Virus record (IMG/VR): IMGVR_UViG_3300032562_000014
Coordinates: 8,645 to 72,644 of that record
Strand: one strand, 5' to 3'
DNA from: a virus
DNA: 64,000 bases
This document shows, in pieces, positions 3,563-56,938 of this stretch (its first letter is position 1; each line of letters starts with the position of its first letter). The notes under the pieces are model-generated. The model had not been told where the DNA came from. It did no database searches and saw only the letters and a list, made by a program, of their open reading frames with translations. A program made the position numbers and the translations under genes.

Positions 3563-3574
3563 AGATAATGATAT

Positions 3575-3679
3575 AAAAAAACAACCCCTTGTAGAGCTTC
3601 GGCCTGGCAGCCTCCACTCCGCAAGGGGTAAAATATCGTTTATTAAGTCGTGGCAGCGACTGTTTGCATGCCAAAAGTA
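3575..3679 (-). promoter_or_regulatory. Promoter plus structured leader ending in an intrinsic terminator (attenuator-like)
   Basis: TACTTTTG on minus at 3672-3679. Hairpin GTCG-CTGCCA-CGAC, then stem ACCCCTTG/CAAGGGGT (3584-3629) followed by a U-tract just before the ATG at 3562. Confidence 0.55.
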
Positions 3680-3754
3680 GTATATTTTTCTTGAAAAATA
3701 ATTTGAAGTGCAAAAATATTCTATCTTTACGCACAATAATACCCAGCACACCTT

Positions 3755-21142: not shown

Positions 21143-21177
21143 AAAAAGAAAATTACCTGTGTACAGGTATAAAAGTA
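21143..21177. promoter_or_regulatory. 35-bp duplicated operator/promoter, copy 1, with palindrome TACCTGT-gt-ACAGGTA
   Basis: Identical to 25967-26001; lies in the divergent region upstream of groES. Confidence 0.75.
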
Positions 21178-25966: not shown

Positions 25967-26001
25967 AAAAAGAAAATTACCTGTGTACAGGTATAAAAGT
26001 A
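25967..26001. promoter_or_regulatory. 35-bp duplicated operator/promoter, copy 2
   Basis: Identical to 21143-21177; lies between the RHH-like gene and the scaffold gene. Confidence 0.75.
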
Positions 26002-26042: not shown

Positions 26043-26080
26043 ATACAGAATATCCTCACACAACAAAACAAAACTATTTT

Positions 26081-28830: not shown

Positions 28831-28871
28831 CTTTTATCTAATAAAATATCTCACACAACAAATCAAACAAT

Positions 28872-31150: not shown

Positions 31151-31177
31151 TAAATTGACATCTTATTAAAAATACCC

Positions 31178-31205
31178 GAAGGCTGGTCATGTGGCCAGCC
31201 TTCTT
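31178..31205 (+). terminator. Hairpin/terminator
   Basis: GAAGGCTGG-tcatgtgg-CCAGCCTTC followed by TT. Confidence 0.6.
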
Positions 31206-31217
31206 AATATTCAAAAC

Positions 31218-43300: not shown

Positions 43301-46300
43301 CAGGTTAAAGATTATTCTTACAGCCTGTTTCAGGAAAACATGCTCCAGAAGAAAATCAAATCATTGGAAGATGGTGCAAAGATGGCAGGATTAGAAGTTG
43401 ACCAGGCGCAACTTGCCCCGCTTAAAAAGAGAATATCGGAAGTGCAGAAAACGCGCGTAGATATTCTGTCTAAACCTGTGCCGAAGCCTGTAATTGTTCC
43501 GGACAAAGCCACAGAAGAAAAGCCCAATAGCGAACCGAACCCTGAACGGAGCGTCGCCAACCAAGCTGACCAGAGCGATGCGGCTGGCAACCAAGAAAAA
43601 AATAATGCCGAAAATGTAAATATTTCAGAAGAACCCATACCTTTATCTCCTGATAATGCTATAGATAATAGTTTAACCCCAAAAACAACCAAAAATGAAA
43701 AAGACAGCAATGGGCCCGAAATCGGCCATGGGCAAGAAAGCGCTTCCATCGGGCGGAATGAAGGCGAAGGCCAAAGTGAAGACAATGCCAACAGTGAAGG
43801 GCGGAATGAAGCCGGGCGGCAAGATCGGGAACTAACCGAAACACCACCTACAGGACAGGACGAGAGCGCTCAGGAACAGCCCGTTGTAAAACAGTCTGAA
43901 AGCGCCTCCTCCGGTTCTGAAACACCAGCAAAAAAGCCCCGGCAGAAGAAAGTATATAAAGGGGATGCCGATACAATACCCGTAGTAGTAAATCCCGGTG
44001 TCGGTACGCAGGATCTCGGCCAAGCCAAAGGCAAGCCCGAAGAACACACCGCAGAAGCCATAAAGGAAGCTACCATAGAGCATCCCGATAAACCGGCAGA
44101 TGTACTCGTTGCAGACCACCCGGAAGGAGAAAGTTTCAACGAAGCGAAAGACCGTTTCCATTCAGCAGTAGAAAGTATAGCCAAAGATGCGCCCGACAAT
44201 TCAGTTGTGGTGACACACTCATGGGGCTTAAAACTGCTGGAAGCTGCACATAAAGTAGGGTGGGATCATCCAAACATAGCCGAAGAACACCAGAACGGTA
44301 GCACCGAGCCTGGCGACCTTGTTCCTTACAAAACAGAGGACGGGAAAATTATATGGTTTGCACGTCACGGAGAAACGGCAGACAACGAAAAAGACCTGCA
44401 GCGCACCAATGATACCAAGCTAACCGATAAGGGCCGCGAACAGGCTGCAAACATCGCAGCAGAGTTAAAAAAAAATGGCGTTACCCCTTCTCAAATAATT
44501 AGCAGTGACCTGCCGCGCGCAAAAGAAACAGCGGATATTATCTCCAAAGAATTTCCGAAAGAAAAACCTACCGAAGATGCCACTAAAATCAACGAGCAGC
44601 CACAGCAAGAAAGCGATAAACAAAGTGGTGAGCCAGAACATGCACGAATTGAGCCAAAAAGGGAGCAAGCCCCGCAGCCAGAAGCAAAAAATAGCGATAG
44701 CAATCAGCGCAGCCAAGCGCCGCAAGTAAAACCAAAACGTAAGGGTAGAAAAGGATGGAGTCTTTCTGCGCAACTTAAAAGGCGCAGCGATGTATTATCT
44801 AATGAACCAAGGACTATAGAAGAGCACATCCTTCATACCATGCTTGCCATGGACGATAAACATCCAGAAGATAAGTGGCGCTTCAAAGACGTTGAAAGGG
44901 ACTTACCTAAAAATGCAAGAAACAGGGATGGAGCCAGTGCAGAAACAAAACGCATAGCCAAGCAATTTACCAGTGTTGATTCTAACATGGGTATTGATGA
45001 GTGGGCAGATGCCTTACATCGCGAAATAGAAGATGGTCACCATCCATTCGGGCTGAATGGAATGGACAGTAAGGATATTGGGGATATGGTTAAAAGCCTT
45101 GTATCTCAATTCCCATCAAAAACCAATCTGTTGGAACATCTTGAAAACCTACATAAAGATGTAGAACCGGAAGACTTGTCTGACGAAGAGAAAGAATATA
45201 ATGCCTCACATCAATTAGCCGAAGCAACACCGGAAAGAATAGAGGCATTAGGTAAGTCAAAATCAGAACTGGAGGAGCATTTGCATAATGAAATAGCCGA
45301 TAAAAAAATAAGCGAATCGGATATATCTGCAATGGATAATTACCTATCTCACCTCCCTGTAGATGAATCTGGCATAACTAATCTTTCAAGCGTAGACCCT
45401 TTTTCAGATGAATACCAGAATATGATGAAAAACCTATCTCACGATGGGCAAGTATTTGTAAATAGGCTATTATTTGAAAGCGTTGCCGAGGATAAGGATG
45501 TTCCCAAAATAATAAAAGAAAAAGCACAACAAAATATAGAAAAAAATGAAAAACAATCAGAACAACAACCTGTCGCATCTGCCGAAGGACATTCAGGAGA
45601 TGAGCCCGAAAAGCCGGGTGAAAACGATGTTACACGCGCTGGTGACAGCGCGTATGGTGAACGGCCAGGTGTCGGAGAACGAGAAGAAGCAGCGCCAAAA
45701 GTTGCAGAACCAATCAAGCGAACCCCTGAGTTAGCCCTTAAAAGACATCAAGCACACGAAAAGGCTGTAGGTGAACTTAATGATCTGCGTGATGAAAGAT
45801 CAGAGATAGAGCAGCATTTATCAACAGAAGAAGCGAAGTCGCGCCCCAATATGGATAAGCGAGCTGAACTGGAGCGGCAGCTTGATGCCAAAGACAAAGA
45901 GATTGCCGATAAGGTAAAAGAAGTAGACCGCAGAAAGCGTGAATTGGATATACAACTTTCACATGAAAAAGGGGCTAAGAAAATTACCGATTTTATAGAA
46001 AAACAGCGCAAGGCAAATAAAGGTATGATGCTATCCTCTCCCGTACCCGGGGAAGTATTTTACTCTATAATGGGTCATTTTGCCAAACTGTACAAAGAAC
46101 TGGGCAATGTGAGGATAGCTGCGCTGCGTGCTGTAGAATGGGCAAAGGACCACTTCAAAAACGAAGAAGGCATAGAGAAATTGAACGCCAGGCATATTGA
46201 AGATGCCAGTAAGCATATTGCTACCCCGCTGGAGCATGAACCACTGATAAGAGATAAAGACGATTTAGAGTCTATAAGGGCTACTGTGCGCGAGATACAG

Positions 46301-47338
46301 GAAGGGGATGTTACAAAAGAAGAAGCTCATCAGGAAATAGATGAATCCCCGATAAGTGATAAAGCAAAAGCCAACCTTCATAATTACATAGACTGGCATA
46401 CCGGAGGCGATACCGAAACGCAGGAGGAAGAACGCAGGGAAAGTAACAACAACACCCTCAATGATAAGAACTGGATAGACGAACACCAGTTAAGTCACTC
46501 TGGTGGTATCACCGAGTATATTTCTCATAAAACAGAGAAGGACATATACGGCGATGAAGCAGTAAAGTCAGCGCAAAAAGAATACGAGGCTACTAAGATA
46601 TTTGAGGACCTGTCGCGCACCGGCCATGACTTGTTCAACCAGGCGCAAAAGAAATATGCACCCAATGGTGAGCCGTTATCAGAGTGGGGAGGTAAATTCC
46701 TTGCAGACCTGAATAATGCAGACCTGCGCGGTAAAGATGCAGGAGCAAAGAAAGTGGTTGGCCTGGCTACGATGGCTGGTGAATTGCAGGGGGAAAGTAA
46801 AAGGCTGGAAATGGAGATGGCCGCAGAAAAAGATGTTGCTAAGAGAAACGACCTGTCTAACCAGAAGGCAAAGACCGATGAATTGCTGGGTAAAGTACAG
46901 AAATCACAAACGGACCTACTGCATGAAGCATCGCTTACGCTTAATGCCCGTAGAATATCCCGCATATTCAGGAACACACACCTGTACGAACTATATGAGA
47001 AAGCAATCCTGTCGGACAAGCAGCGCAAGGCAAAGGATAACATCAATGAAGCGCTGGACACAGGTAAAGTAGCCGACAAGGATATAGCGCCCGGCATAGC
47101 CCCTGCTGCAAAGCCCGAGAAGGAAGCACTGAAAGAAGAGGCGAAGGCATCAGAGGCGCGTAAAGCAAAAGAAAGTGATCAGCCTAAGAAAAAAGGCATC
47201 ATCAAGCGCATAAAAGAGGCTGCAACCAAAGGTAAGAAAGCCAGTAAGGAAGAGATAAGAAAAAACATCTTATCCAAAGAAGAAAAGGCTGCGCTGTTGA
47301 ATGATATTCTCAAAGAGCAAAAGAAGACAAAATGCTAA
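40388..47338 (+). CDS. Giant ejection/cargo protein with an N-terminal GH73 (glucosaminidase/FlgJ-like) peptidoglycan hydrolase and an internal histidine-phosphatase-like domain
   Basis: 2316 aa. SQLIHETG...NNYSGI...YVKFPTV...LKVNGYY.D..Y is the GH73 pattern. A central Gly-rich hydrophobic region is followed by FARHGET...LTDKGREQA...SSDLPRAKETA. Confidence 0.75.
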   Translation: MPDKKKEISLQDIAADINDSDTTSASDVESALGKYVSGNAKSYAVSQLIHETGNPELDSEVSRNNNNYSGITWNKNFPDEWKGTPRPDSEGGNYVKFPTVDDWAREHAKLLKKDKGAGAPADATSIEDYAHRLKVNGYYKDPESVYAKSLKRIQAQRGEKNIADVAADINDDSAPDATQPAPAAPVAQQTPQQITNSVFGTQLDGSPIAGATQVPVAPTVPAQPAAPANSWENTTGLISDTPAPAGVSQGVNGNANNSNPAPVAPQLSQQEILNKTLGTQLNGVPIATAPVEKTAPEKTQDAVDFLAKDALQSGAVQPTTDAAHPDNELNQLTNPHGDPAYIANYKNNRMKAINTEYQQQLYELQTDPARSTDFKEKQALDAQFAQKKKDLEENAGHIIGLQLFNQEYGQNKPMGATANTATDAIRGRYEKDAKGIDNQIAATYKSEAPNGSEAVELRKQLNTQKLALTTQYDADISRTKAGVKYNPIQLGAKYAAAMGDETAKEDLNKLEHGQPIAPSNQYKYNLRGNRIIQDGTDNAVNEKAKEEGEAHADRSGDQLFENNKPFIVKNAADVVANAKEQDRNPISSFLSFVTPSKVMPNITREEIDKYGQQEGIPENALNELRQNPNLIPKPASGLEYLAKGALNTAAPIFQRLVYPAIQGVVGGEDPNQRFHSGWENESGLGAAIVGNTPSSQNSWSNIRGVGNQMMETIGNLGVFGGEVGGLAKGGEALGLGEKASEKLANFGVMAFDGYNDAYNKSLDIFGDKPEDEGKRKLYSTVNGLITGALFSISPKAQIVKNALGMESKSAESLIKEIQANNGMEFLQTKTGKEALASTVQEFGKEYGAQISLATAQKISEGIVDGIAAPERKQNMPGDVMDAAGGTAISMLLPSILGSLGHTTHEASLNAGAMFEMGTHPDQYISTISKQLQDGKISPQQAQASHDAILTMKNVVSNTPTENSIGEQLTPNQVKDYSYSLFQENMLQKKIKSLEDGAKMAGLEVDQAQLAPLKKRISEVQKTRVDILSKPVPKPVIVPDKATEEKPNSEPNPERSVANQADQSDAAGNQEKNNAENVNISEEPIPLSPDNAIDNSLTPKTTKNEKDSNGPEIGHGQESASIGRNEGEGQSEDNANSEGRNEAGRQDRELTETPPTGQDESAQEQPVVKQSESASSGSETPAKKPRQKKVYKGDADTIPVVVNPGVGTQDLGQAKGKPEEHTAEAIKEATIEHPDKPADVLVADHPEGESFNEAKDRFHSAVESIAKDAPDNSVVVTHSWGLKLLEAAHKVGWDHPNIAEEHQNGSTEPGDLVPYKTEDGKIIWFARHGETADNEKDLQRTNDTKLTDKGREQAANIAAELKKNGVTPSQIISSDLPRAKETADIISKEFPKEKPTEDATKINEQPQQESDKQSGEPEHARIEPKREQAPQPEAKNSDSNQRSQAPQVKPKRKGRKGWSLSAQLKRRSDVLSNEPRTIEEHILHTMLAMDDKHPEDKWRFKDVERDLPKNARNRDGASAETKRIAKQFTSVDSNMGIDEWADALHREIEDGHHPFGLNGMDSKDIGDMVKSLVSQFPSKTNLLEHLENLHKDVEPEDLSDEEKEYNASHQLAEATPERIEALGKSKSELEEHLHNEIADKKISESDISAMDNYLSHLPVDESGITNLSSVDPFSDEYQNMMKNLSHDGQVFVNRLLFESVAEDKDVPKIIKEKAQQNIEKNEKQSEQQPVASAEGHSGDEPEKPGENDVTRAGDSAYGERPGVGEREEAAPKVAEPIKRTPELALKRHQAHEKAVGELNDLRDERSEIEQHLSTEEAKSRPNMDKRAELERQLDAKDKEIADKVKEVDRRKRELDIQLSHEKGAKKITDFIEKQRKANKGMMLSSPVPGEVFYSIMGHFAKLYKELGNVRIAALRAVEWAKDHFKNEEGIEKLNARHIEDASKHIATPLEHEPLIRDKDDLESIRATVREIQEGDVTKEEAHQEIDESPISDKAKANLHNYIDWHTGGDTETQEEERRESNNNTLNDKNWIDEHQLSHSGGITEYISHKTEKDIYGDEAVKSAQKEYEATKIFEDLSRTGHDLFNQAQKKYAPNGEPLSEWGGKFLADLNNADLRGKDAGAKKVVGLATMAGELQGESKRLEMEMAAEKDVAKRNDLSNQKAKTDELLGKVQKSQTDLLHEASLTLNARRISRIFRNTHLYELYEKAILSDKQRKAKDNINEALDTGKVADKDIAPGIAPAAKPEKEALKEEAKASEARKAKESDQPKKKGIIKRIKEAATKGKKASKEEIRKNILSKEEKAALLNDILKEQKKTKC
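43518..43595 (+). repeat. Degenerate copy of the dispersed repeat, read in-frame within the cargo gene
   Basis: Shares AAAAGCCCAAT and GAACCCTGAACGG with the 51100/56918 copies, and CTGAACGGAGCGTCGC with 63863-63878. Confidence 0.55.
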
Positions 47339-50300
47339 AGATAGACTGTTTATTCCTGAATACTTCGCTTGTAGAAAAGCTGAAAAAGTATGTTCGCTCC
47401 GAAGGCTACGAACGCCTGGCTGACAACAAAGGCATGTCCTTTCAGTCTATGTATGACCATGTAAAAAACGAACTGGGCGTAGAGATAGATAAAGAGAGCT
47501 TCGGGTATATTTATGAGAATGAACTGCAGCACTCCAAGGATGAGCGATTTACGCACAGCGATGATATTTCGGAGAGCGTAGGCGCGCCAATGACGCAAAC
47601 ACTCCGAAACCTCATGGTGCATTCAGATAAGACCGGTGAGCAAAAAATAGGTGATCTATCCCCTGGCAACGCAGTGGCAAAAAGCATCACCGATACCTTC
47701 TCCAATAAAATAATAAAAGACGAGCGCACAAAGAGCAACCTGAAAAAAATGGAGGGCTTCGTAAAGGAGGCTATGGACCGAGTGGCCGGAGAACTGCCAG
47801 AAGATGTGAATAAAAAAGAGGATAAACGCACCATGGAGCAAGTAGTTGCGGATGCGATAGATAAAGAGTCGCTGGGACACAAAGATGCACTCACCGGAGC
47901 TACTATAGGAATAGACAAAGTATTTGACCATGTGCAAAAAGTGATTAGCGAACATGCCAAAGCAATAGGCGATCCTGAATTACAGCAACAGTATGAGAAA
48001 TACACAGAGGATATGCGCAAGAACGCATACACCATAGCATTGTCGTCCGGTGAAGCAAAGAAAGTAGTGGAAGGCTCACTCCGCGATGCCGGCTTTATGA
48101 AAACAGATGCCGAAGGCCGGGAATTAGTGGACTGGGACAAGCTGAAAGGAAGCATCAACAGCCCGCGCCAGTTGTATGACAATACGGTGAAGGCGCTTAC
48201 TAAATCAGGCATAGACCAAAACACCGCAGAGCGTGTGGCATTGGCAGTAAACAGGGAGCATACGGAACTGGTTAAAAAGGTGGCTTTAAAGGCAGATGCG
48301 GAGCAAGCGAAACTACTGTCCTCATGGGATGCTAATAAAAACAAGAAAATATCTGCAAAAGCCGAAATAGATGATCAGGTTCAAAAGTGGGATAACTATA
48401 AAGGATTTGAAGGCAAAGCAGATGCGCCACTGATAGTAAGTAAAAGCACTGCTAAAGAAGCGCTGAAACATGTGCTTACAAGAGTGGGGTTAATAGATAA
48501 AAATGGCAACCTGAGCCTTGATAAAATATCGAAGCAGATAACCAAACCTGCCGACATAAAATACATCGCGCAGGAATATTTCAAAGCCCAAAAGAACGAA
48601 GACGGTACACCCAAATACGATACAGAAACCGCCGGCCACATAGCCAATGCAATAGACGGCATGTACCAGGAACTATTCTCTAAAGTGCGCGAGCATGTGG
48701 AAGGCAAGCAAAAGGCAGTAGAAGCCACATGGGAGCCTAAAACAGGCGAAGCAAAGCAGCAGACCACTGCAGATGAATTGATAGACAACAGGCTAAAAGA
48801 AAGCAGCCAGTACCGCAAGATCACAGGCAAAGCAAATGCGCCACTGAAATTCAAATTACAGGAAGCGCAGAAGATAGCCGGAGAAGCCATTGCTGCCAGC
48901 AAGGAATATGGTAAAAATGGCAAAATAGACTGGCAAGCAATGGCAGAAAACAGGCCCAGCGGGATAAAGATGGAGGCGATGTTGCGCAATCATCTGTTGG
49001 AGAAGTATGGGTATAGCAAAAGCGATGCGGCAGAAGTAGCGGCATCCATAACGAGGGATTACATAGAAAAGCTGCACGAAGATATAGACAGACATGCCAG
49101 CGGCATATTAGATGCAAGACAGGCTGCATTAGGCCGTGAAGCGCCGGAAAGAAAAACAGCAATAGAAAGGCTGGCCCAGGCGCATACACTGGGTATATTT
49201 GATGAATCAAGGGAGGCGCTACTCCATCATATGCTGGGGATAGACAAGATAGATGCAGATGACCTGCAATCGCTTAAAAGCCTATCAGATACAATTGGTA
49301 ATTTGCGAAATGAAGTTGCCGGCCCAAACTACTTGAATAGTTTTGCATATCAAAGTGCTAATCGCGTAGTAGCTCACCTGCTGGACAAAAATAAGGAAGA
49401 TCACAGCCGGGCTATAAAGATAGCTAATGCAGTCAATCATGCCTTTGGCTTGATGAATATGAGCCTTATAGCCAACCCGTATAATCTGATAGAAAATAAC
49501 TGGTCGGGGGCTCAGGCATTATTGGGCGCTCAGGGAGAACTTGTGAAGCAAATGGGTGCTAAAAATGCAGCTATGTTCAATGATCACAAACTATGGGCTA
49601 ATGTATGGAAGGATGTAGGTATTGGCGGCACGGAATATGGAGATGGTGCCGGTGAAAAGTGGGCGCACATCGGAGGTTATGTAGATAAGCTGAATACCCT
49701 TGATTTTAAAAATAATCCCGGCAGGGCTATACTTACTTCTGTTATTACTCCATTCAGGACCCTGCTAAACGGATCGGATGCGGCTAACAAAGCGGTCCTC
49801 CATCAAAAGGGATTTGTATTAATGCTACACAAAGCCCTTACCTCGCAAGGAATGGATAACGATGCTGCCGCGCATTTTATTCACGAAGCATTGTACGGAG
49901 AGAATTTTGATAAAGCAAGAGAAAGAGCAAGGGGATTGATAGAAAAGTACGGTGACCAGTTGGGTATTGGTGCAACCCGTCAGGCAAGAAAGAGGGCGGA
50001 AATAAGGTGGGCTAACGACCTTGTAAAAGCAAACCTTAATCTCAGCGGGGAAACGAGTATGCTGGGCGGTGATATGCCTATAAAGGACGAAGAAATCATT
50101 GAAGCTGCATTATCAAGTAGTTTTCATGCGGCATCATTGTCTTTAGGCCACGAAGCAAATAATATGGCTTCTCGCGGATTGAAGGCCGGGAAAAAGGCTG
50201 CAGCACAGCATGAAAAAGAACTTATAGAAAAGGGGGAATATCAAAAAGCGGCATTAGCCAGATTTGGTAATAACCTTTATTACAATGGAGTTAAGAGAAT

Positions 50301-51093
50301 GATCAGTGGTTCCCTCAACTGGGCCATGCTTCGCGCGGAAAGTGCCGGCATAGGATTAGGATTGTCCCCTACAGTATTGGGGGACAGAAAGACAAGCCTC
50401 GACTTTACCAGTAAGGATAAGCTGGAAGAAAGTATGCGCCAAAGGATCGTTGCATCGCGAAAGATAACCAGGGCGATAACGGGAGCAACTATGTCTGCAT
50501 TAACGATAGCCGGGCTGGCTACATATGGCGCGCTCAAAAAGAAAGACGAAGATGCAGATGCGCCGGAGATGACAGACACAGAAAAGGGCATGAAGTCTGT
50601 AAAAGATACATGGGCCGCAGATAAGATAATGGGTAAAGCCGGCCCCGATCTTGCGTATCTATACTATTTGTCTAAAATGAATGAAGGGCAAGGAGGTGCA
50701 GCCGCAGCATACGGGTCTATAAAATACGTCAACAACCTACTTAACAATAACCCCACCTACACAACAGCAGGTGATATGTATGGTATTGAAGAGGCGCTAC
50801 GCCAAGGGCATATGAATGAAAAAAGCCAAAATAAAGCCGCCGGTAAATTCGGACAGCTTATTGGACAATTTTTGAATGTACCCCTGTACGTACCCTTTCA
50901 TCAGATATACGATATGATAGATGGCAATCCGCATAAAAGAGAGTTTACCAAACCAGAATCGGTGATACAGGGCGCTTTAATGGGTGGCTTCATACAGGAT
51001 GGAATAAATTGGCTGCCAGACGACATCATAGAAAATCATCAGATGCAAAACTGGAAATACAAGCCTGCGTACAATCCAAATGCAGGGCAATAA
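47332..51093 (+). CDS. Large ejection/cargo protein
   Basis: 1253 aa, helical, with C-terminal Gly/Ala hydrophobic segments; overlaps the previous stop. Confidence 0.65.
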   Translation: MLKIDCLFLNTSLVEKLKKYVRSEGYERLADNKGMSFQSMYDHVKNELGVEIDKESFGYIYENELQHSKDERFTHSDDISESVGAPMTQTLRNLMVHSDKTGEQKIGDLSPGNAVAKSITDTFSNKIIKDERTKSNLKKMEGFVKEAMDRVAGELPEDVNKKEDKRTMEQVVADAIDKESLGHKDALTGATIGIDKVFDHVQKVISEHAKAIGDPELQQQYEKYTEDMRKNAYTIALSSGEAKKVVEGSLRDAGFMKTDAEGRELVDWDKLKGSINSPRQLYDNTVKALTKSGIDQNTAERVALAVNREHTELVKKVALKADAEQAKLLSSWDANKNKKISAKAEIDDQVQKWDNYKGFEGKADAPLIVSKSTAKEALKHVLTRVGLIDKNGNLSLDKISKQITKPADIKYIAQEYFKAQKNEDGTPKYDTETAGHIANAIDGMYQELFSKVREHVEGKQKAVEATWEPKTGEAKQQTTADELIDNRLKESSQYRKITGKANAPLKFKLQEAQKIAGEAIAASKEYGKNGKIDWQAMAENRPSGIKMEAMLRNHLLEKYGYSKSDAAEVAASITRDYIEKLHEDIDRHASGILDARQAALGREAPERKTAIERLAQAHTLGIFDESREALLHHMLGIDKIDADDLQSLKSLSDTIGNLRNEVAGPNYLNSFAYQSANRVVAHLLDKNKEDHSRAIKIANAVNHAFGLMNMSLIANPYNLIENNWSGAQALLGAQGELVKQMGAKNAAMFNDHKLWANVWKDVGIGGTEYGDGAGEKWAHIGGYVDKLNTLDFKNNPGRAILTSVITPFRTLLNGSDAANKAVLHQKGFVLMLHKALTSQGMDNDAAAHFIHEALYGENFDKARERARGLIEKYGDQLGIGATRQARKRAEIRWANDLVKANLNLSGETSMLGGDMPIKDEEIIEAALSSSFHAASLSLGHEANNMASRGLKAGKKAAAQHEKELIEKGEYQKAALARFGNNLYYNGVKRMISGSLNWAMLRAESAGIGLGLSPTVLGDRKTSLDFTSKDKLEESMRQRIVASRKITRAITGATMSALTIAGLATYGALKKKDEDADAPEMTDTEKGMKSVKDTWAADKIMGKAGPDLAYLYYLSKMNEGQGGAAAAYGSIKYVNNLLNNNPTYTTAGDMYGIEEALRQGHMNEKSQNKAAGKFGQLIGQFLNVPLYVPFHQIYDMIDGNPHKREFTKPESVIQGALMGGFIQDGINWLPDDIIENHQMQNWKYKPAYNPNAGQ

Positions 51094-51099
51094 CACGGG

Positions 51100-51175
51100 A
51101 AAAGCCCAATCGATCGTTGAACCCTGAACGGTGCCATCGACACCTCAGCTCAATAGTAGCAACCAGTCTGGACAA
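51100..51175 (+). repeat. 76-bp direct repeat, copy 1
   Basis: 73/76 identical to 56918-56993. Confidence 0.9.
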
Positions 51176-51180
51176 CAACT

Positions 51181-51211
51181 AAAAAAAGGAAGGCCTCCGA
51201 GAACGGAGGCC
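51181..51211 (-). terminator. Intrinsic terminator (minus strand)
   Basis: GGCCTCCG-ttct-CGGAGGCC-ttcc-TTTTTTT on the minus strand. Confidence 0.8.
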
Positions 51212-51286
51212 ACAAGTAAGGCTACGACAACAAATCGTGGCCATCCCTCATTAATCACACAACAACGTGGTGTAAAAATGACAACG
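51181..51286 (-). ncRNA. Candidate trans-acting antisense sRNA with GU-rich seed loops
   Basis: TACTTTTG on minus at 51290-51297 with TTTG 22 nt upstream; no protein-length ORF. Hairpins expose GUUGUU and UUUGUUG. It ends in a GC stem plus U-tract and is complementary to leaders of several genes. Confidence 0.6.
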
Positions 51287-51325
51287 GGACAAAAGTAGTG
51301 TTTCTAAAAAATATTTCAACAAATA

Positions 51326-51356
51326 TTTGGTGGTGTGAAATAGTTGTGTAATTTTG
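51326..51356 (+). promoter_or_regulatory. Consensus Bacteroidota promoter (-33 TTTG / -7 TAnnTTTG)
   Basis: TTTG at 51326-51329, a 19-nt spacer, then TAATTTTG at 51349-51356. Confidence 0.75.
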
Positions 51357-51378
51357 TGGAAACAAGTGGAATAATACA

Positions 51379-51558
51379 ATGGGCCGACCACGAGAAGAAG
51401 ATTCTGAATTATTTGATGTACGTATTAAAGTTATGGGAGAAGACGCTCTTACCATAAGGAAGTACGTAGAGGATAAGAAGAAGAAGGATCGCCGCAAAAC
51501 GATTATCAATACTGTAGAGGCAATACTGCTGGAAGCAGCCGAACAGCACAAAAAATAA
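51379..51558 (+). CDS. Small RHH/Arc-like DNA-binding protein (59 aa, below the ORF-track cutoff)
   Basis: Manual translation: MGRPREEDSELFDVRIKVMGEDALTIRKYVEDKKKKDRRKTIINTVEAILLEAAEQHKK. It lies directly behind the consensus promoter. Confidence 0.6.
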   Translation: MGRPREEDSELFDVRIKVMGEDALTIRKYVEDKKKKDRRKTIINTVEAILLEAAEQHKK

Positions 51559-51574
51559 TAGAAAACAGGAAAGC

Positions 51575-52237
51575 ATGACCACATCCCTACTTAACGACTG
51601 CCTCCTGCTCCGCGCCGGGACCGAAGAGAAACTACGGGAATACCTTCATTCGGTAAACCTGCTGGTGTTTGACCCGTTGTTTGATAGGCTACACAGAACT
51701 GATGCTGGGTTAACTGTACCGCAAATCGTACTGTACATACTATGCGCCTACAGTGAGGACAGTCCTATGATAATACTCCGGCAGGATGTGTTGACAGAGC
51801 AGAACAACATCTGTGAGTTCCTGCAAATACCAGAGATATTCAGGCCAGACCTTATCAACCTGAAAGACTCGCAGATAAAGAGAGTAGCAGTGGATTACGT
51901 CAACCAATTCGCCAGCCCGGTGTTTCGCTCCATGATGTTCACGAGAATACAGATACGTGACTTTGAAATTGCAATGACCGTAAGGGATTTCAGTGTACTA
52001 AAGCCCGGTGACGACAAAGAATATTACTATGATAGCAAAGAGCATGGTAAAATCACATCTGAACACATGAGGCTTTGCAAGCAATTAGCTGACATGGAAA
52101 AACAGGTGAAGCAGGACATGAAGAGAATAGAAGGGATGAATGAATTGCTGGACTTTATGGATGAGGCGAAGGGAACAAAGAAAGGGAAGGCGGCAAAGAA
52201 GCGCGCCACAGGGCACATCGAAAATCAAATAGAATAA
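51575..52237 (+). CDS. Hypothetical protein (possible terminase small subunit)
   Basis: 220 aa, helical with a basic C-terminus, in the terminase operon. Function is inferred from position only. Confidence 0.45.
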   Translation: MTTSLLNDCLLLRAGTEEKLREYLHSVNLLVFDPLFDRLHRTDAGLTVPQIVLYILCAYSEDSPMIILRQDVLTEQNNICEFLQIPEIFRPDLINLKDSQIKRVAVDYVNQFASPVFRSMMFTRIQIRDFEIAMTVRDFSVLKPGDDKEYYYDSKEHGKITSEHMRLCKQLADMEKQVKQDMKRIEGMNELLDFMDEAKGTKKGKAAKKRATGHIENQIE

Positions 52238-52269
52238 TTATTTTTTCACACAATAAAACGACAACAATC

Positions 52270-53076
52270 ATGGATCTTAAAAAAGAATTGCAGCAAATCA
52301 AGACAAATAATATTAAGCATCATAATGATGTAGTATCAGAAGTAAAGCTATTATTGGCTGGGGATGCCAGTGAAGATTTAGCTATAATGCGGCACCTTGC
52401 CAGTAACAGCAAGATAGTTAGAGCCGAAGAGGCGCTGGGGCGTAAAATAGAATTGGAGAAATTGGAGAATGACTACGGGGAAGTATATACAATAGATCAA
52501 ATAGAAAAACTGTGCATCAAGTATAAACTTAGATTTCTCCCTTCAAGACTATTCAAGGGGGATTTGCCAGTCACTACCATTCATAAGATAAAGCAGTTTG
52601 CTAAAGAAACTACTACATCTATTGATCCTCATTCTCTTAATACAAAATTCTTTATCATTGCCCCTGCGGAGTCTTTTGAATTAAATTATGTTTCCGAAAG
52701 GGCGGAGCGTGAACGTATCATGAGAGAGAAAGACCCAGTTCTTTTTTATCAGATAGATAGCGAGCATTACCGGATGATACACAAATGGGGAAATGACTTC
52801 ACTATATTCAGAAGGGTAATAGGTTTTATCTGGGAGAATAAAGCACAACATAATTACACAATAAAAATATCTTATGTTGCAATCATGAGTGTTATTATCT
52901 ATTTGCTTGCCTCTACAATCCCTGATGGAGATCATCTTATTGCGTTTACAATCCACTTTGCTGGGAGCCTATTGGGAGTCATTTCAATTTTGGTACTTCT
53001 TATTGCATATGAGAGAGAGGACAAAGAATGGTGGTCAAAAAATAACTGGAATAACACAAGTAAAATGGTGCGATAA
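52270..53076 (+). CDS. Hypothetical membrane protein
   Basis: LRFLPSRLFKG and KDPVLFY...IHKWGNDF motifs; two C-terminal TM helices. Confidence 0.6.
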   Translation: MDLKKELQQIKTNNIKHHNDVVSEVKLLLAGDASEDLAIMRHLASNSKIVRAEEALGRKIELEKLENDYGEVYTIDQIEKLCIKYKLRFLPSRLFKGDLPVTTIHKIKQFAKETTTSIDPHSLNTKFFIIAPAESFELNYVSERAERERIMREKDPVLFYQIDSEHYRMIHKWGNDFTIFRRVIGFIWENKAQHNYTIKISYVAIMSVIIYLLASTIPDGDHLIAFTIHFAGSLLGVISILVLLIAYEREDKEWWSKNNWNNTSKMVR

Positions 53077-53542: not shown

Positions 53543-54028
53543 ATGGAATATAGGGAATATCCAGATCAGCAGTTCGCATATATTCTACATCATACCGAAG
53601 GCGGCAACGATCCTATGTCTGGAGAAGCGCCGCGAAAAATAGGCGAGATAGTTGGCGCATCGGACGATGAGGAAGAAATGGTTGCACTTGGTAAGAAGTT
53701 GTACCCAAGGCCGACTACATGGGAATGGGATGGTTGGACTATAAATGTGAATACCAGCACTGATATTGGCAAGGCTAAGTATGCAGCATGGGCAGAAGAT
53801 AGCAGGAAACGATTTGCATATATTGAAGCACACTCAGAAGAGTATGATTTTATTAACTATGGGGAGAATAAAATTTACTTTAAAAAGAACGGATTGCTCG
53901 ATGATTTAATAAACACTTCTGGGAATGATAAGTCAATGTACGGGACTATGTCCTTTTTAATTCCGAGTAGCGGTTTGATTGGGCCTGTAGCCCCAATAGA
54001 AATTTATACACCAAAGAATAAAGAATGA
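53543..54028 (+). CDS. Hypothetical protein
   Basis: 161-aa ORF with an ATGA overlap to the terminase gene. Confidence 0.55.
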   Translation: MEYREYPDQQFAYILHHTEGGNDPMSGEAPRKIGEIVGASDDEEEMVALGKKLYPRPTTWEWDGWTINVNTSTDIGKAKYAAWAEDSRKRFAYIEAHSEEYDFINYGENKIYFKKNGLLDDLINTSGNDKSMYGTMSFLIPSSGLIGPVAPIEIYTPKNKE

Positions 54029-56316
54029 CCTACAACGAAGGGGATATAATAGAGATACCAATCGGGGAGCACATCTTTCGCACCCCACCCGTTCCGCCAA
54101 AGCGGGACATCCTCTTCCATGACAAAAAGAAAGCCGACCAATACTGGACGCGCCAGACAGACCTGCCAAAAATATTTTACGACTGGCACAATGAAACACA
54201 TTCCTTCGGAGTAGGCGTAGAACTGGATGCAAAGAAGACAGAGTATCACCCGGACAGCCCTTCACTGCTTATATCCCTGAGTAAAGAAGACACAGCGCTA
54301 CTATTCGGCAAGGCAGAAGATGGGAAGGAAGGCTACCAGGTAAGAGAATACAGGCGAAGGAAAGAAGGAGTATGGTTCTACAACAACGGAGAGCCTACCT
54401 ACCTTACGGGAGATCACTATGCCGCCTTACAGTGGCTACCCATGCTTGCTTGTGACAATGAAGTAGAGCCCGGTAGTGTATATGGGCAATATCTTGAATT
54501 TCAGCGCGACTTCTGCTATTTCTTTTTATTGGCAGAAACCACAAAATTTGGCTATGGTGGGTTAATAGTAAAGCCAAAGAAGACCGGTCTTACGCAGTTG
54601 ATGTGCTGTATCTGCCTGAACCGAGCAATGATCATGCGCCTGAAGACAATACGCATGATGTCCATAACGGAGGCTATCTGCAAAGAAACCAATTTCAAGC
54701 TGATAGCCTATGCCATGGAAGGTGTGCCAGCCATCTTAATGCCCACGAAGACAAAGCAAAATGAGTCAGAGGTTATCTTTGGGCCACCGGCATCATCAAA
54801 GCGCAGCGTGAGGAAAACAAAGGAGCAAAACCTTGATTACTTGCACAACTGGCTATGCACCGTACCGACCACACGTACTGCCTTTGACTCTATAACCAAC
54901 TACATAGCATTCATAGATGAGTTTCCAAAGATAAAAGACAGCACCTACCCGAAAGAACTGTTTGAAGCCACACTGGTAGCGGTACGTGAAGGCTCCAAAA
55001 GGAAAGGCACAGTGTTTGGACTCTCTTACGTACCGGAAATATCCAACAGGTCCTTCCGCGAGGCAAAGGAGTTATTCATCAATAGCAAGCTAAAGACGGT
55101 CAAAAAGAACGAAGAGGGAGAATATGTTGGCCACACCAAAAGCGAGCTCATTTGCTATACCCTGTTAGTGCAGCAGGGCATATTCGGATGCTGTGACAAG
55201 TACGGCAAGCCGATAGAAGCTAAAGTATGGGGCTTCATCAACAACGAGAAAGAAAAGGCGAAGGACGACCCGGACAAGCTGCAAGCCATAAAGCGCCAGT
55301 ACCCATCATCGGAGAACGACCCATGGCAACATGCGATCAGTGACGACTCCCTGTACGACATAGTACGCCTTGAAGAGCAAATGGAATACCTGCTGGACAG
55401 ATACTCCACCGGCGACCTTCCGTATGAAACCTACAACCTGCGTTATGAATTTGCGCCAGTAAAGAAACCTCGCAGCGAGCAATACGAATTTCGGGGCAAG
55501 ATACTCATAGACCAGGTAACCAATGACGACATCATGGACGACAAGCCACTGGGCCTGTATAAGTGGTACGACAAACAGTGGACACCCGAATGGTACCTGC
55601 AAAAGCACCTGGGCAACATCACCGTAAACGAAAAGAACGGACTGCTGCAGCCCAACCCTAACAGCCCCTTCTTTCTCGCGATGGACCCGACAGGATACCG
55701 GAGCAAGAAATACACCGGCAAAGGATCCATGAACTCCCTGCAAGCCTTCATCATGCCGGATGCGGAACTAAACGCATGGTGCGGTGAAAACACCACCAAC
55801 TACCGGCAGATGATAGAGTACCACTACCGGCAGGACAAGCCCAGCGAAACCATGCAGGATGTGATCAGGCTGCTATTATTCCTTGGCTGCTACTTTCTGT
55901 TAGAGTCCAACCAGGCTACATGGGCAGAAGACCTCATAGAAATGGGATTGGGAAACTTCCTGCTGATGATGAACGAAGAGGGAGGATTGGAGCCATGGAA
56001 CCCCCACAGGAAGCAAAGCCTGTTTGAGAAGACCACAGCCAACATAGACCAGATGGTAAACGCCACACAGGAGCATTTGGGCGCAGCCAGAAGACCAGAG
56101 GACATAGACAACATCAAGTACATCAAAAGTTACCTCACCTGCAAGCAGTTAACAGAGGTAACAAAGCTGAACATGAAGGAGTATGACGTAGCAGTATGTT
56201 ATCAGGAGGCTATAATGGGCATGAAAGGCTATCAGGGCTGGAAGAGAGCGCAGGAGGAGAGAAACAGGCATCGCGGGGATGGTGGGATAAGGGCGGCGGT
56301 ATTAAAAATCAGGTAA
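54025..56316 (+). CDS. terL: Terminase large subunit (crAss-like)
   Basis: GVWFYNNGEPTYLTGDHY, Walker A-like KPKKTGLT, Walker B FIDEFPK, RQYP, nuclease-domain LAMDP and LLESN. Confidence 0.88.
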   Translation: MTYNEGDIIEIPIGEHIFRTPPVPPKRDILFHDKKKADQYWTRQTDLPKIFYDWHNETHSFGVGVELDAKKTEYHPDSPSLLISLSKEDTALLFGKAEDGKEGYQVREYRRRKEGVWFYNNGEPTYLTGDHYAALQWLPMLACDNEVEPGSVYGQYLEFQRDFCYFFLLAETTKFGYGGLIVKPKKTGLTQLMCCICLNRAMIMRLKTIRMMSITEAICKETNFKLIAYAMEGVPAILMPTKTKQNESEVIFGPPASSKRSVRKTKEQNLDYLHNWLCTVPTTRTAFDSITNYIAFIDEFPKIKDSTYPKELFEATLVAVREGSKRKGTVFGLSYVPEISNRSFREAKELFINSKLKTVKKNEEGEYVGHTKSELICYTLLVQQGIFGCCDKYGKPIEAKVWGFINNEKEKAKDDPDKLQAIKRQYPSSENDPWQHAISDDSLYDIVRLEEQMEYLLDRYSTGDLPYETYNLRYEFAPVKKPRSEQYEFRGKILIDQVTNDDIMDDKPLGLYKWYDKQWTPEWYLQKHLGNITVNEKNGLLQPNPNSPFFLAMDPTGYRSKKYTGKGSMNSLQAFIMPDAELNAWCGENTTNYRQMIEYHYRQDKPSETMQDVIRLLLFLGCYFLLESNQATWAEDLIEMGLGNFLLMMNEEGGLEPWNPHRKQSLFEKTTANIDQMVNATQEHLGAARRPEDIDNIKYIKSYLTCKQLTEVTKLNMKEYDVAVCYQEAIMGMKGYQGWKRAQEERNRHRGDGGIRAAVLKIR

Positions 56317-56609: not shown

Positions 56610-56701
56610 ACACCACATATGAAAATAGAATGGGAATACAACAGGGAAATGAACCACACCCCGGAAAGACGGGGATATTTTTCACACAATAATTCATAGC
56701 C

Positions 56702-56938
56702 ATGGATAAAGAATTTTTCACGATAATAAGTATGCTTTTTGAAGGCATCATAATAGGGTTCATATTCGGCGGAATAGTTGAGCGTTGCTCCCTGCAAAAA
56801 GAGAAGGAGGCGCGTAAGAGTGTGAAGCGTGCCAATAAAAAGGCAAAAGAAGATAAGGAGAAAGCCCGGCAGCAGGAAGTTGTTGATTTGTTAAAGGTTT
56901 ATCAGTTAAAGAATGAAAAAAGCCCGATAGATCGTTGA
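56702..56938 (+). CDS. Small membrane-anchored protein
   Basis: N-terminal TM helix and basic tail; the stop codon falls inside repeat copy 2. Confidence 0.5.
   Translation: MDKEFFTIISMLFEGIIIGFIFGGIVERCSLQKEKEARKSVKRANKKAKEDKEKARQQEVVDLLKVYQLKNEKSPIDR

What the first reader, a model, noticed from the sequence alone, without database searches (positions are those of the whole stretch)
51181..51297. Candidate phage sRNA whose GU-rich seeds are antisense to the leaders of many phage genes
Seen: a self-contained minus-strand unit with a TACTTTTG promoter, ~105 nt of non-coding sequence, and a GC hairpin plus U7. Its segment UUGUUGUGUGA pairs perfectly with TCACACAACAA in the leaders of the scaffold gene (26056-26066) and the post-capsid gene (28851-28861). 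It pairs via one G:U wobble with TCACACAATAA at 52246-52256 and 56682-56692. All four sites end 9-14 nt before an ATG. Shorter matches precede 8687 (TAATCACACA) and 60933 (ACACAACAA). A second hairpin with loop UUUGUUG matches ACGACAACAA at 52258-52267 and ACAACAAATC at 28855-28864. Known analogies: GcvB represses through C/A-rich translational enhancers, and P1 C4 and P4 CI RNAs use two seeds. Inference: a multi-target translational repressor of morphogenesis and packaging genes, possibly for lysogeny or timing, suited to SD-less Bacteroidota leaders.
Basis: partly seen in the sequence, partly recalled or inferred. Interest (0 to 1): 0.88.

Follow-up and report, generated by a model that had tools for sequence, protein, structure and literature searches.

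The report
Candidate small RNA over relic leader
A short leftward promoter-to-terminator unit in an uncultured freshwater phage may make a ~100-nt RNA, but it matches other gene leaders because it lies antisense to a decayed copy of a leader motif shared across the phage's relatives, so control of many genes is unproven.

Summary
These are the minus-strand TACTTTTG box, a strong minus-oriented hairpin plus T7, and 11-nt complementarity to four leaders that end 9-14 nt before an ATG.

That copy also sits 12 nt before an ATG. The ATG opens a 6-codon stub that resembles the start of a real 171-aa gene elsewhere in the record.

The unit is the left arm of a ~400-bp cassette. The cassette also carries back-to-back host-type promoters and a 59-aa RHH-like gene, and it is found only in this phage and one near-identical contig. 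A 91-kb distant relative has the leader motif sense to its genes but lacks both the RNA unit and the 59-aa gene.

So the motif is most likely a cis-acting C/A-rich leader element, and the complementarity is inherited.

- A ~100-nt minus transcript is plausible (about 0.5).
- Multi-target repression is possible but weak (about 0.15). The seed is paired in the predicted fold, and the two seeds are not colinear on the best target.
- No RNA data exist.

The parts
51320..51323 (-). -33-like TTTG of the leftward promoter. It is half of the palindrome CAAATATTTG shared with the rightward -33.
   Evidence: spacer 22 nt; palindrome I3/I8
51290..51297 (-). -7-like box TACTTTTG (Bacteroidota type TAnnTTTG)
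51248..51281 (-). Predicted 5' hairpin of the putative RNA. It pairs the 'seed' UUGUUGUGUGA with UUACACCAC.
   Evidence: opening the seed costs 6.4 kcal/mol
51255..51265 (+). Fifth plus-strand copy of the leader motif TCACACAACAA. Its complement is the proposed seed 1.
51278..51298 (+). Six-codon stub ORF (MTTGQK*), 12 nt after the motif. Together with 51243-51290 it resembles the upstream region and first codons of a real 171-aa gene at record position 7492, which lies outside the window.
   Evidence: (87% over 30 nt, E 4e-4)
51220..51242 (.). Hairpin 2. It has 8 pairs including one G-U on the plus RNA, and 3+5 pairs around a C-A mismatch on the minus RNA. The minus-strand loop carries UUUGUUG (seed 2).
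51181..51211 (-). Minus-oriented intrinsic terminator: 8-bp G+C stem, loop TTCT, then TTCC and T7. On the plus strand no T run follows the hairpin.
   Evidence: The L122 change at 51196 gives U-G on the minus RNA and C-A on the plus RNA.
51099..51178 (+). Copy of a dispersed ~80-nt plus-strand element. In distant relatives it lies directly upstream of the homologue of the 220-aa gene. It marks the left edge of the inserted cassette.
51326..51356 (+). Rightward host-type promoter: TTTG, 19-nt spacer, TAATTTTG. The spacer holds two direct copies of GTKGTGTRA (51330-51338 and 51343-51351).
51379..51558 (+). 59-aa ORF, probably a ribbon-helix-helix DNA-binding protein. It is the right arm of the cassette.
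   Evidence: 11 distant homologues; extended N-terminus plus two helices; weak hits that include ParD, NikA and PrpA chains
26056..26066 (+). Leader motif copy, 14 nt before the ATG at 26081
28851..28861 (+). Leader motif copy, 10 nt before the ATG at 28872
52246..52256 (+). Leader motif copy (TCACACAATAA), 13 nt before the ATG at 52270. ACGACAACAA follows at 52258-52267.
56682..56692 (+). Leader motif copy (TCACACAATAA), 9 nt before the ATG at 56702

Best explanation
The locus is the left arm of a lineage-specific ~400-bp cassette (about 51179-51574). The cassette was inserted between a conserved ~80-nt upstream element and the 220-aa gene that this element normally precedes.

The cassette carries two mirror-image host-type promoters. 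The rightward one drives a 59-aa RHH-like protein. The leftward one runs about 100 nt into a strong minus-oriented terminator.

The DNA under the leftward unit is a decayed plus-strand gene start. It holds a copy of the C/A-rich leader motif TCACACAAYAA, then 12 nt, then an ATG and a 6-codon stub.

Any leftward transcript is therefore G/U-rich and complementary to every leader that carries the motif. That complementarity is inherited, not evidence of targeting.

The motif itself most likely acts in cis on the plus strand, as an ACA/CACA-rich translation-promoting leader element of these Shine-Dalgarno-less mRNAs.

The leftward unit is most likely a short terminated divergent transcript. Its terminator shields the 1253-aa gene from antisense transcription. 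It may also act as an antisense RNA against plus-strand read-through into the cassette.

What is shown: the signals, the relic, the insertion and the clade-wide motif. What is inferred: transcription and any function.
For: The seed is a leader copy:
- The seed is the complement of a plus-strand motif copy with its own ATG at 12 nt.
- The region resembles the 5' end of the real 171-aa gene at record position 7492.

The cassette is an insertion:
- The ~80-nt element lies directly upstream of the homologue of the 220-aa gene in L123, L127, L129, L130 and L131.
- In the window and in L122 it is separated from that gene by the cassette.

The motif does not need the cassette:
- With up to 1 mismatch, the motif occurs 8 times forward and 3 reverse in relative G001, against 1 and 2 for the reversed control.
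- Six of the 10 fetched hits (5 genes) lie within 27 nt upstream of an ATG that opens at least 50 codons.
- G001 has no match to RNA model R1 and none to the 59-aa family.
- L123 carries TCACACAAACAA 7 nt before its ATG and has no cassette.

Leaders are generally C/A-rich and lack Shine-Dalgarno sequences:
- A is 60-70% at -14 to -10. CACA occurs 29 times against 12.5 +/- 3.3, and ACA 86 against 66.7 +/- 6.8.
- Only 3 of 67 leaders have an SD-like 4-mer.
- ACA motifs are known position-flexible translation enhancers (PMC3879156, abstract read).

Promoter and terminator signals.
Against: - No transcript data for either strand.
- The -33/-7 spacer of the leftward promoter is 22 nt, longer than the 19 nt of its partner.
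- The enhancer role of the motif is by analogy only.
- A cluster of four GTKGTGTRA copies in 97 bp points to a DNA-level protein site as an alternative meaning of the same letters (pattern defined after seeing them).
- The near-identity of 51168-51961 between the window and L122 (3 differences) leaves no comparative test of constraint.
- G001 is only 70% complete, so absence of the RNA unit there is not proof.
Confidence: 0.5

Rival explanations
1. A ~100-nt minus-strand sRNA uses G/U-rich seed 1 (and the loop of hairpin 2) to pair with TCACACAAYAA and ACAACAA in several leaders and represses their translation, as GcvB does on C/A-rich enhancers. The RNA would have arisen by capturing a leader copy in antisense orientation.
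For: - Promoter-like -33/-7 boxes and a strong terminator bracket about 100 nt.
- The L122 substitution is a wobble only on the minus RNA.
- 8 of 67 start regions have a contiguous helix score of at least 24, against 2.0 +/- 1.6 in 300 shuffles (1 reaches 8) and 2.7 per 67 for coding controls.
- Local duplexes are -14.5 to -17.6 kcal/mol on six leaders, and target opening costs only 0.2-1.2 kcal/mol.
- In B. thetaiotaomicron, candidates with both a TSS and a terminator were mostly validated, and GibS pairs with start regions (PMC7366714, passages read).
Against: - Seed 1 is paired in the predicted fold (opening cost 6.4 kcal/mol).
- At looser cut-offs the excess is not significant (P 0.06-0.08). 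The naive full-length duplex test shows none (P 0.085-0.84).
- On the 52270 leader the seed-1 site lies 5' of the seed-2 site, the reverse of colinear antiparallel pairing.
- The motif exists in relatives without the RNA.
- The target functions are unassigned.
- The strongest predicted partner is not a listed target but the paralogous 171-aa gene's start region (-26.1 kcal/mol).
Confidence: 0.15
2. The repeated letters are DNA sites for a protein, most simply the cassette's own 59-aa RHH-like protein. GTKGTGTRA (complement TYACACMAC) occurs as two direct copies inside the spacer of the rightward promoter and as an inverted pair just downstream of the leftward promoter. The copies in front of other genes would be further operators. 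Any RNA would be incidental.
For: - 4 of the 7 window matches to GTKGTGTRA lie in 51255-51351. The window total is 7 against 2.0 +/- 1.6 expected, and 2 of 100 shuffles reach 7.
- Two copies lie in DNA that neither promoter should transcribe (51330-51351).
- The whole promoter region is an imperfect palindrome.
- The 59-aa protein models as an extended N-terminus plus two helices. Its weak fold hits include RHH chains, by my recall of those entries.
Against: - The pattern was defined after seeing the copies.
- The TCACACAATAA leaders (52246, 56682) do not fit it.
- The four leaders carry single, non-palindromic copies.
- G001 has the leader motif but no homologue of the 59-aa family in the 91 kb held.
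- The RHH assignment has no significant sequence or fold match.
Confidence: 0.2
3. Nothing functional is made from the minus strand. The -7/-33 match is fortuitous or part of the palindromic operator. The hairpin is a structural or boundary element of the cassette, and the region is only a decaying gene start.
For: - TAnnTTTG is common (73 in the window).
- The spacer is 22 nt.
- Both strands fold equally well.
- Hairpin 2 is better on the plus strand.
- There is no Rfam family: the best E-value is 3, with 0 hits at gathering score.
Against: - A clean 8-bp G+C stem followed by T7 only on the minus strand, in a block of plus-strand genes, is hard to explain without minus transcription.
- The mirror symmetry of the two promoters looks designed.
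Confidence: 0.15

Closest known systems
P22 immI 'ant moron' (mnt, arc, sar RNA, ant)
   Same: Both are cassettes inserted into a phage operon that combine small repressor gene(s) with a short RNA made from the opposite strand (PMC2629481, passages read). Here too an inserted cassette pairs a small RHH-like gene with a short opposite-strand unit that has its own terminator.
   Different: sar overlaps and represses a live neighbouring gene (ant) in cis. Here the overlapped plus-strand feature is a 6-codon relic, and the RNA is divergent from the small gene, not inside an arc-ant type junction. No antirepressor was identified. That Arc and Mnt are RHH proteins is from my recall.
GcvB and ACA/C-A-rich translation enhancers
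   Same: G/U-rich RNA letters are complementary to ACA-rich sequences just upstream of start codons. The motif TCACACAACAA holds three ACA triplets (PMC3879156, abstract read).
   Different: No Rfam GcvB match. The seed is predicted to be paired, not single-stranded. The host-type leaders lack Shine-Dalgarno sequences. There is no conservation series. The locus is a phage cassette, not a core bacterial gene.
P1 c4 and P4 CI RNAs
   Same: These are small phage RNAs. P1 c4 acts in trans to block Ant synthesis (PMC8546580, passage read). The two-seed pairing mode and the P4 CI details are from my recall only.
   Different: By my recall, those RNAs are processed from the same transcript and strand as their targets and pair colinearly. 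Here the RNA would be a primary transcript of the opposite strand, and the two sites on the best two-seed target are in reversed order.
Bacteroides 'high-confidence intergenic sRNAs' such as GibS
   Same: An intergenic unit with a sigma-ABfr-type promoter motif and a Rho-independent terminator. GibS pairs with translation initiation regions (PMC7366714).
   Different: GibS uses a single-stranded 5' seed and is experimentally mapped. This unit has no expression data, and its seed lies in a hairpin.

Membership tests
Intergenic sRNA by the criteria used for B. thetaiotaomicron (PMC7366714): own TSS, intrinsic terminator, read coverage | Rho-independent terminator at the 3' end | tested here: met
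   8-bp stem with 7 G-C pairs, about -16 kcal/mol, followed by TTCC and T7 on the minus strand only
Intergenic sRNA by the criteria used for B. thetaiotaomicron (PMC7366714): own TSS, intrinsic terminator, read coverage | Cognate transcription start site | tested here: inconclusive
   Only a promoter-like match: TTTG, 22-nt spacer, TACTTTTG. The -7 motif alone is common.
Intergenic sRNA by the criteria used for B. thetaiotaomicron (PMC7366714): own TSS, intrinsic terminator, read coverage | Detected transcript | not testable with these tools
   No listed public run holding this DNA is on record as RNA.
GcvB-like multi-target seed sRNA | Accessible single-stranded G/U-rich seed | tested here: not met
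   the seed nucleotides are mostly paired, and opening them costs 6.4 kcal/mol. The loop of hairpin 2 is accessible (2.45 kcal/mol).
GcvB-like multi-target seed sRNA | More start-region matches than composition predicts | tested here: inconclusive
   significant only at the strictest cut-off (8 of 67, 1 of 300 shuffles), and driven by one repeated motif of which the locus is itself a copy.: not significant.
GcvB-like multi-target seed sRNA | Seed conserved among relatives, covarying with targets | tested here: inconclusive
   The only relative with the unit (L122) differs at 1 of 105 nt. There is no match in G001 or in the 10 other loci searched.
GcvB-like multi-target seed sRNA | Match to the Rfam family | tested here: not met
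   no family. The best hit has E = 3 (suhB/mmgR, 14.9 bits against a gathering score of 41).
P1 c4 / P4 CI type two-seed RNA | Two seeds pairing colinearly with two sites of the target | tested here: not met
   on the 52270 leader the seed-1 site (52246) lies 5' of the seed-2 site (52258), the reverse of what antiparallel colinear pairing needs.
Cis-antisense RNA of a moron (P22 sar type) | Lies in a cassette inserted relative to related phages | tested here: met
   the element abuts the 220-aa homologue in five relatives.: the cassette is present in the window and in L122.
Cis-antisense RNA of a moron (P22 sar type) | Overlaps the start region of a live gene on the other strand | tested here: not met
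   The overlapped ORF is 6 codons long.
Ribbon-helix-helix protein (the 59-aa neighbour) | Strand-helix-helix fold or a family match | tested here: inconclusive
   No Pfam or PDB sequence match. The model built with 11 sequences has an extended N-terminus and two helices, pLDDT 79.5. Foldseek gives 0 hits at E <= 0.001, and the weak hits include ParD, PrpA and NikA chains. The nearest named Atlas cluster is RHH_1 at 0.90, a lead only.

The most novel reading that the evidence does not exclude
A phage cassette has turned a captured, decayed copy of the clade's C/A-rich leader into an 'anti-leader' sRNA. A ~100-nt G/U-rich transcript, set against a small RHH-like repressor by mirror-image promoters, would titrate the translation-enhancing leader motif of several phage genes. 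It would also pair most strongly with the start region of the paralogous 171-aa gene. This would be a GcvB-like global switch in a virus of Shine-Dalgarno-less Bacteroidota, born from its own target.
Probability: 0.15. Interest if true: 0.8.

Novelty: new member of a known kind. Interest (0 to 1): 0.42.

Why it matters
If the RNA is made and acts in trans, it would be, to my knowledge, the first regulatory sRNA described for a phage of Bacteroidota-type hosts. My one literature search on this (19 papers hold 'phage-encoded', 'sRNA' and 'Bacteroides'; none of the 12 listed titles concerns such an RNA) does not prove absence from print. It would also show how a regulator can be born from a duplicated target.

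The firmer and more useful result is different. This phage clade shares a short C/A-rich leader motif, sense to its genes and close to the start codon. That is a testable candidate translation element for mRNAs that lack Shine-Dalgarno sequences.

The locus also shows how complementarity to 'many targets' can arise with no targeting at all, when a candidate RNA lies antisense to a member of a repeat family.

Tried and rejected
Expression:
- No RNA holder was listed among the 24 runs that hold the DNA.
- I laid contigs of 4 of those 24 runs on 50000-53000. They showed no variant letters, only assembly branch points at the ~80-nt repeat.

Relatives:
- blastn of 50600-52400 against phage records gave no match.
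- The single-protein search with the 220-aa protein in viral contigs found no relative.
- An exact 21-mer of the seed region had 0 hits in viral contigs.
- The exact 23-mer of hairpin 2 had 0 hits in genome contigs.
- The 59-aa protein had no relative in viral contigs.
- A 15-mer of the ~80-nt element gave 116 stretches. Only one (L079) resembled the record: it overlaps the record's first 2662 bases and extends beyond that end.

Statistics that did not support a special status:
- Full-length duplexfold energies were uninformative, because long loops inflate them. The RNA was no better than shuffles, and coding controls scored lower.
- The test 'largest number of leaders sharing any k-mer' was dominated by A-rich words and not significant (k=8 P 0.136, k=10 P 0.254). 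Under that null the motif is not the most shared word. My estimate that 4 leader copies still exceed a leader-composition expectation is hand arithmetic, not a tool result.

The minus 109-aa ORF (51255-51584) was rejected as the antisense shadow of the 59-aa gene. The grounds are its F/L/S-rich translation, read by eye, the absence of a PHROG family, and the plus ORF being the one on record as a called protein with homologues.

The 59-aa protein:
- The single-sequence fold gave one long helix and was superseded.
- Pfam and PHROGs gave nothing for the four motif-bearing genes, the 171-aa gene, or the putative capsid gene.

Other negatives: no tRNA, and no integrase or resolvase. Supplementary files of papers were not consulted.
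Full report
WHERE THE WINDOW LIES

The window is bases 8645-72644 of a 72,644-base IMG/VR virus record that CheckV rates 64% complete. Public runs that hold it are freshwater and lake metagenomes. Nearly all long ORFs are on the plus strand.

The leaders resemble those reported for Bacteroidota (PMC7366714, passages read):
- They are A-rich: 42% A and 13% G over -35 to -1.
- A reaches 60-70% at -14 to -10.
- Only 3 of 67 carry an SD-like 4-mer.

TAnnTTTG is modestly enriched: 73 against 54 +/- 8. In the record, 25 copies lie in 8.0 kb of non-coding DNA and 54 in 64.6 kb of coding DNA.

THE OBSERVATION

- The -7-like box TACTTTTG is at 51297-51290 on the minus strand.
- The hairpin is at 51211-51192, followed by TTCC and T7.
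- The 105-nt minus RNA folds into three hairpins at -37.6 kcal/mol, z -5.2.
- TCACACAAYAA occurs 6 times against 0.06 expected.
- The four cited leader copies end 14, 10, 13 and 9 nt before their ATG.
- ACGACAACAA occurs exactly only at 51224 and 52258.

1. One of the six motif copies is the plus strand of the locus itself (51255-51265). Like the others it is followed by an ATG, here at 12 nt. That ATG opens only ATG ACA ACG GGA CAA AAG TAG.

2. This stretch resembles the upstream region and first codons of a real gene. Window 51259-51288 is 87% identical (E 4e-4) to record 7472-7502. There the same ...ACAACAAC-TGG-T-TAAAAATGACAA-GGG opens a 171-aa ORF. The 'seed' is therefore the antisense of a decayed gene start that belongs to the leader family.

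3. The seed is largely paired in the predicted fold.
- Hairpin 1 pairs GUUGUGUGA with UUACACCAC, and opening the seed costs 6.4 kcal/mol.
- The loop of hairpin 2 costs 2.45 kcal/mol to open.

4. Folding does not favour one strand.
- The plus strand of the same 105 nt folds at -34.8 kcal/mol, z -6.0.
- Hairpin 2 has a G-U pair on the plus RNA that becomes a C-A mismatch on the minus RNA.

5. On the 52270 leader the seed-1 site lies 5' of the seed-2 site. That is the wrong order for colinear antiparallel pairing.

IS A MINUS-STRAND RNA LIKELY?

Signals in favour:
- Of 25 non-coding TAnnTTTG boxes in the record, only 3 have a TTTG 19-22 nt upstream. Two of the three are the back-to-back pair here: minus 51290 with a 22-nt spacer, and plus 51349 with a 19-nt spacer.
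- The two -33 boxes form the palindrome CAAATATTTG, and the whole 51289-51364 stretch is an imperfect palindrome.
- The terminator has a T run only on the minus strand.
- My own record-wide hairpin scan shows a comparably clean minus-oriented hairpin in non-coding DNA of the plus-strand blocks at only one other place, 31178-31203. That one also has a weak T/A-rich tail on the plus strand.

The only relative that holds the unit is L122, a metagenome contig (88% identity on the 220-aa protein).
- It differs from the window at 1 of 105 positions, at 51196.
- That change turns a U-A pair of the terminator stem into U-G on the minus RNA, but into C-A on the plus RNA.
- This is one substitution, so it is weak support.

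There are no RNA runs and no population variants in the four runs laid. I put the chance that a ~100-nt minus RNA is made at about one half.

WHAT THE SURROUNDINGS SAY

A ~80-nt plus-strand element (51099-51178) is dispersed in the record.

The cassette looks inserted:
- In distant relatives the core of the element lies directly upstream of the homologue of the 220-aa gene. This holds for L123, L127, L129, L130 and L131.
- In the window and L122, about 400 bp separate the element from that gene. This stretch holds the minus unit, the promoter pair and a 59-aa ORF.
- The unit is therefore part of an inserted, lineage-specific cassette.
- Between the window and L122, 51168-51961 has 3 differences while the flanks have dozens. 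Comparison therefore says nothing about constraint.

The 59-aa protein:
- It has 11 distant homologues of similar size.
- With them it models as an extended N-terminus plus two helices, pLDDT 79.5.
- Foldseek finds nothing significant. Its weak list includes several chains that I recall as ribbon-helix-helix proteins: ParD, PrpA, NikA and pCXC100 ParB.
- Pfam and PDB sequence searches are blank.
- 'RHH-like' is therefore probable, not shown.

THE LEADER MOTIF IS OLDER AND WIDER THAN THE CASSETTE

In G001, a 91-kb record with 44% identity on the 220-aa protein, the motif with up to 1 mismatch occurs 8 times forward and 3 reverse. The reversed-pattern control gives 1 and 2.

Context of the hits:
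- Of the 10 hits fetched, 6 (at 5 genes) lie within 27 nt upstream of an ATG that opens at least 50 codons. One of them sits on a minus-strand gene, with the motif on the minus strand.
- One hit is inside a long ORF, and three are unclear.

G001 has no match to a covariance model of the RNA unit and none to the 59-aa family. The other relatives' loci also lack the unit (only L122 matches among 11 loci, 81 kb).

Further points:
- L123 has TCACACAAACAA 7 nt before the ATG of its 220-aa homologue.
- In L122 the 52246-type leader is kept, although the gene behind it is a different one.
- Within the window's own leaders, CACA (29 against 12.5 +/- 3.3) and ACA (86 against 66.7 +/- 6.8) are generally enriched.
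- ACAACAA is twice as frequent as expected, and 25 of 28 copies are on the plus strand.

The simplest reading is a cis-acting, sense-strand, C/A-rich leader element. It would be comparable to the position-flexible ACA translation enhancers described in enterobacteria (PMC3879156, abstract).

TARGET STATISTICS

Contiguous-helix score against 67 start regions (-35 to +15):
- 8 reach a score of at least 24, against 2.0 +/- 1.6 in 300 dinucleotide shuffles of the RNA. One shuffle reaches 8.
- The sense-strand control gives 2, and coding controls give 2.7 per 67.
- At scores of at least 21 and at least 19 the excess is not significant (P 0.08 and 0.06).
- A naive full-length duplex test shows no excess.

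The strong helices are the four motif leaders, 60933, the paralogous 171-aa gene, and two unrelated ones. The excess is therefore the repeat family itself.

Local duplex energies:
- -14.5 to -17.6 kcal/mol for six leaders.
- -26.1 kcal/mol for the 171-aa gene's start region, paired with nt 1-34 of the RNA.

Minus the 6.4 kcal/mol seed opening, pairing is feasible but not compelling.

A SECOND RIVAL: DNA SITES

The letters GTKGTGTRA (complement TYACACMAC) occur 7 times in the window against 2.0 +/- 1.6 expected. Four of the seven lie within 51255-51351.
- Two direct copies lie in the spacer of the rightward promoter, in DNA that neither promoter should transcribe.
- An inverted pair forms hairpin 1.

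This looks like an operator array for a small dimeric repressor such as the 59-aa protein.

Points against:
- I defined the pattern after seeing the copies.
- The TCACACAATAA leaders do not fit it.
- G001 has the motif without the protein.

FUNCTIONS CLAIMED FOR THE TARGETS

- None of the four motif-bearing genes has a Pfam or PHROG assignment. 'Scaffold' and 'post-capsid' are positional guesses.
- The terminase large subunit is 54025-56316 (PHROG 6681, E 1.5e-38). Its leader has no motif.
- No integrase or resolvase is present in the 72.6 kb held, so a lysogeny role has no support.

VERDICT

Its complementarity to many leaders is explained by its position over a relic member of a clade-wide leader family, and several features argue against an optimised seed RNA.

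| Reading | Probability |
|---|---|
| Terminated divergent or antisense transcript over a relic, with the motif acting in cis | about 0.5 |
| DNA operator reading of the repeats | about 0.2 |
| Multi-target anti-leader sRNA | about 0.15 |
| No functional minus RNA | about 0.15 |

The closest known architecture is the P22 'ant moron' with its small repressors and sar RNA (PMC2629481). The closest known mechanism for the bold reading is GcvB silencing of ACA enhancers.

Noticed in passing
window 43517, 51099, 56917, 63838; record 8349-8432; L079 1990-2075; L122 1291 and 3651; L123, L127, L129, L130, L131 upstream of the 220-aa homologue: A dispersed ~80-nt plus-strand element with core ...GAACGG(T/A)GC..TCGC(C/A)AC...AATAG... 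In several relatives it sits directly upstream of a start codon, and one copy lies inside the 2316-aa ORF. Stem letters flanking the conserved GAACGG seem to covary between relatives, by eye and untested. Loose ends of contigs show further copies in the unassembled part of the genome. It could be a phage-specific promoter or a protein-binding RNA hairpin.
   Followed up: partly
window 21143-21177 and 25967-26001: A perfect 35-nt repeat, AAAAAGAAAATTACCTGTGTACAGGTATAAAAGTA, with a palindromic core. Both copies lie upstream of minus-strand ORFs (start 21124, and the 79-aa ORF 25911-25672) and next to plus-strand promoters. It may be a shared operator or promoter for leftward units.
   Followed up: no
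window 52239-52272 versus L122 2430-2464: The TCACACAATAA...ACGACAACAATC leader is kept in L122, but the gene behind it (268 aa in the window) is replaced by an unrelated one. Homology resumes at 53074. Conserved leaders seem to serve as recombination joints for gene cassettes.
   Followed up: partly
window 51255-51351: Four copies of GTKGTGTRA in 97 bp, two of them inside the spacer of the rightward promoter. This is a candidate operator array for the 59-aa protein.
   Followed up: partly
window 51379-51558: The 59-aa ORF belongs to a small family (11 homologues of 59-112 aa at E 2e-7 to 8e-4) with a conserved FDxR...G...R..(K/R)T..NT.EAIILE pattern and no Pfam family. It is modelled as an extended N-terminus plus two helices.
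   Followed up: yes
window 40388-47338: The 2316-aa protein carries a histidine-phosphatase domain (PF00300, E 1.7e-22, two stretches).
   Followed up: no
L079 (IMG/VR fragment, 6173 bp): Positions 3512-6173 are 99.9% identical to the first 2662 bases of the record. L079 therefore extends the record by about 3.5 kb beyond that end and adds one more copy of the ~80-nt element.
   Followed up: no
window 31160-31217: The hairpin GAAGGCTGG-N8-CCAGCCTTC lies between two plus-strand genes. It has an A run before it and only a weak T/A tail after it on the plus strand, while the minus strand reads GTATTTTT after it. Its orientation as a terminator is ambiguous.
   Followed up: no
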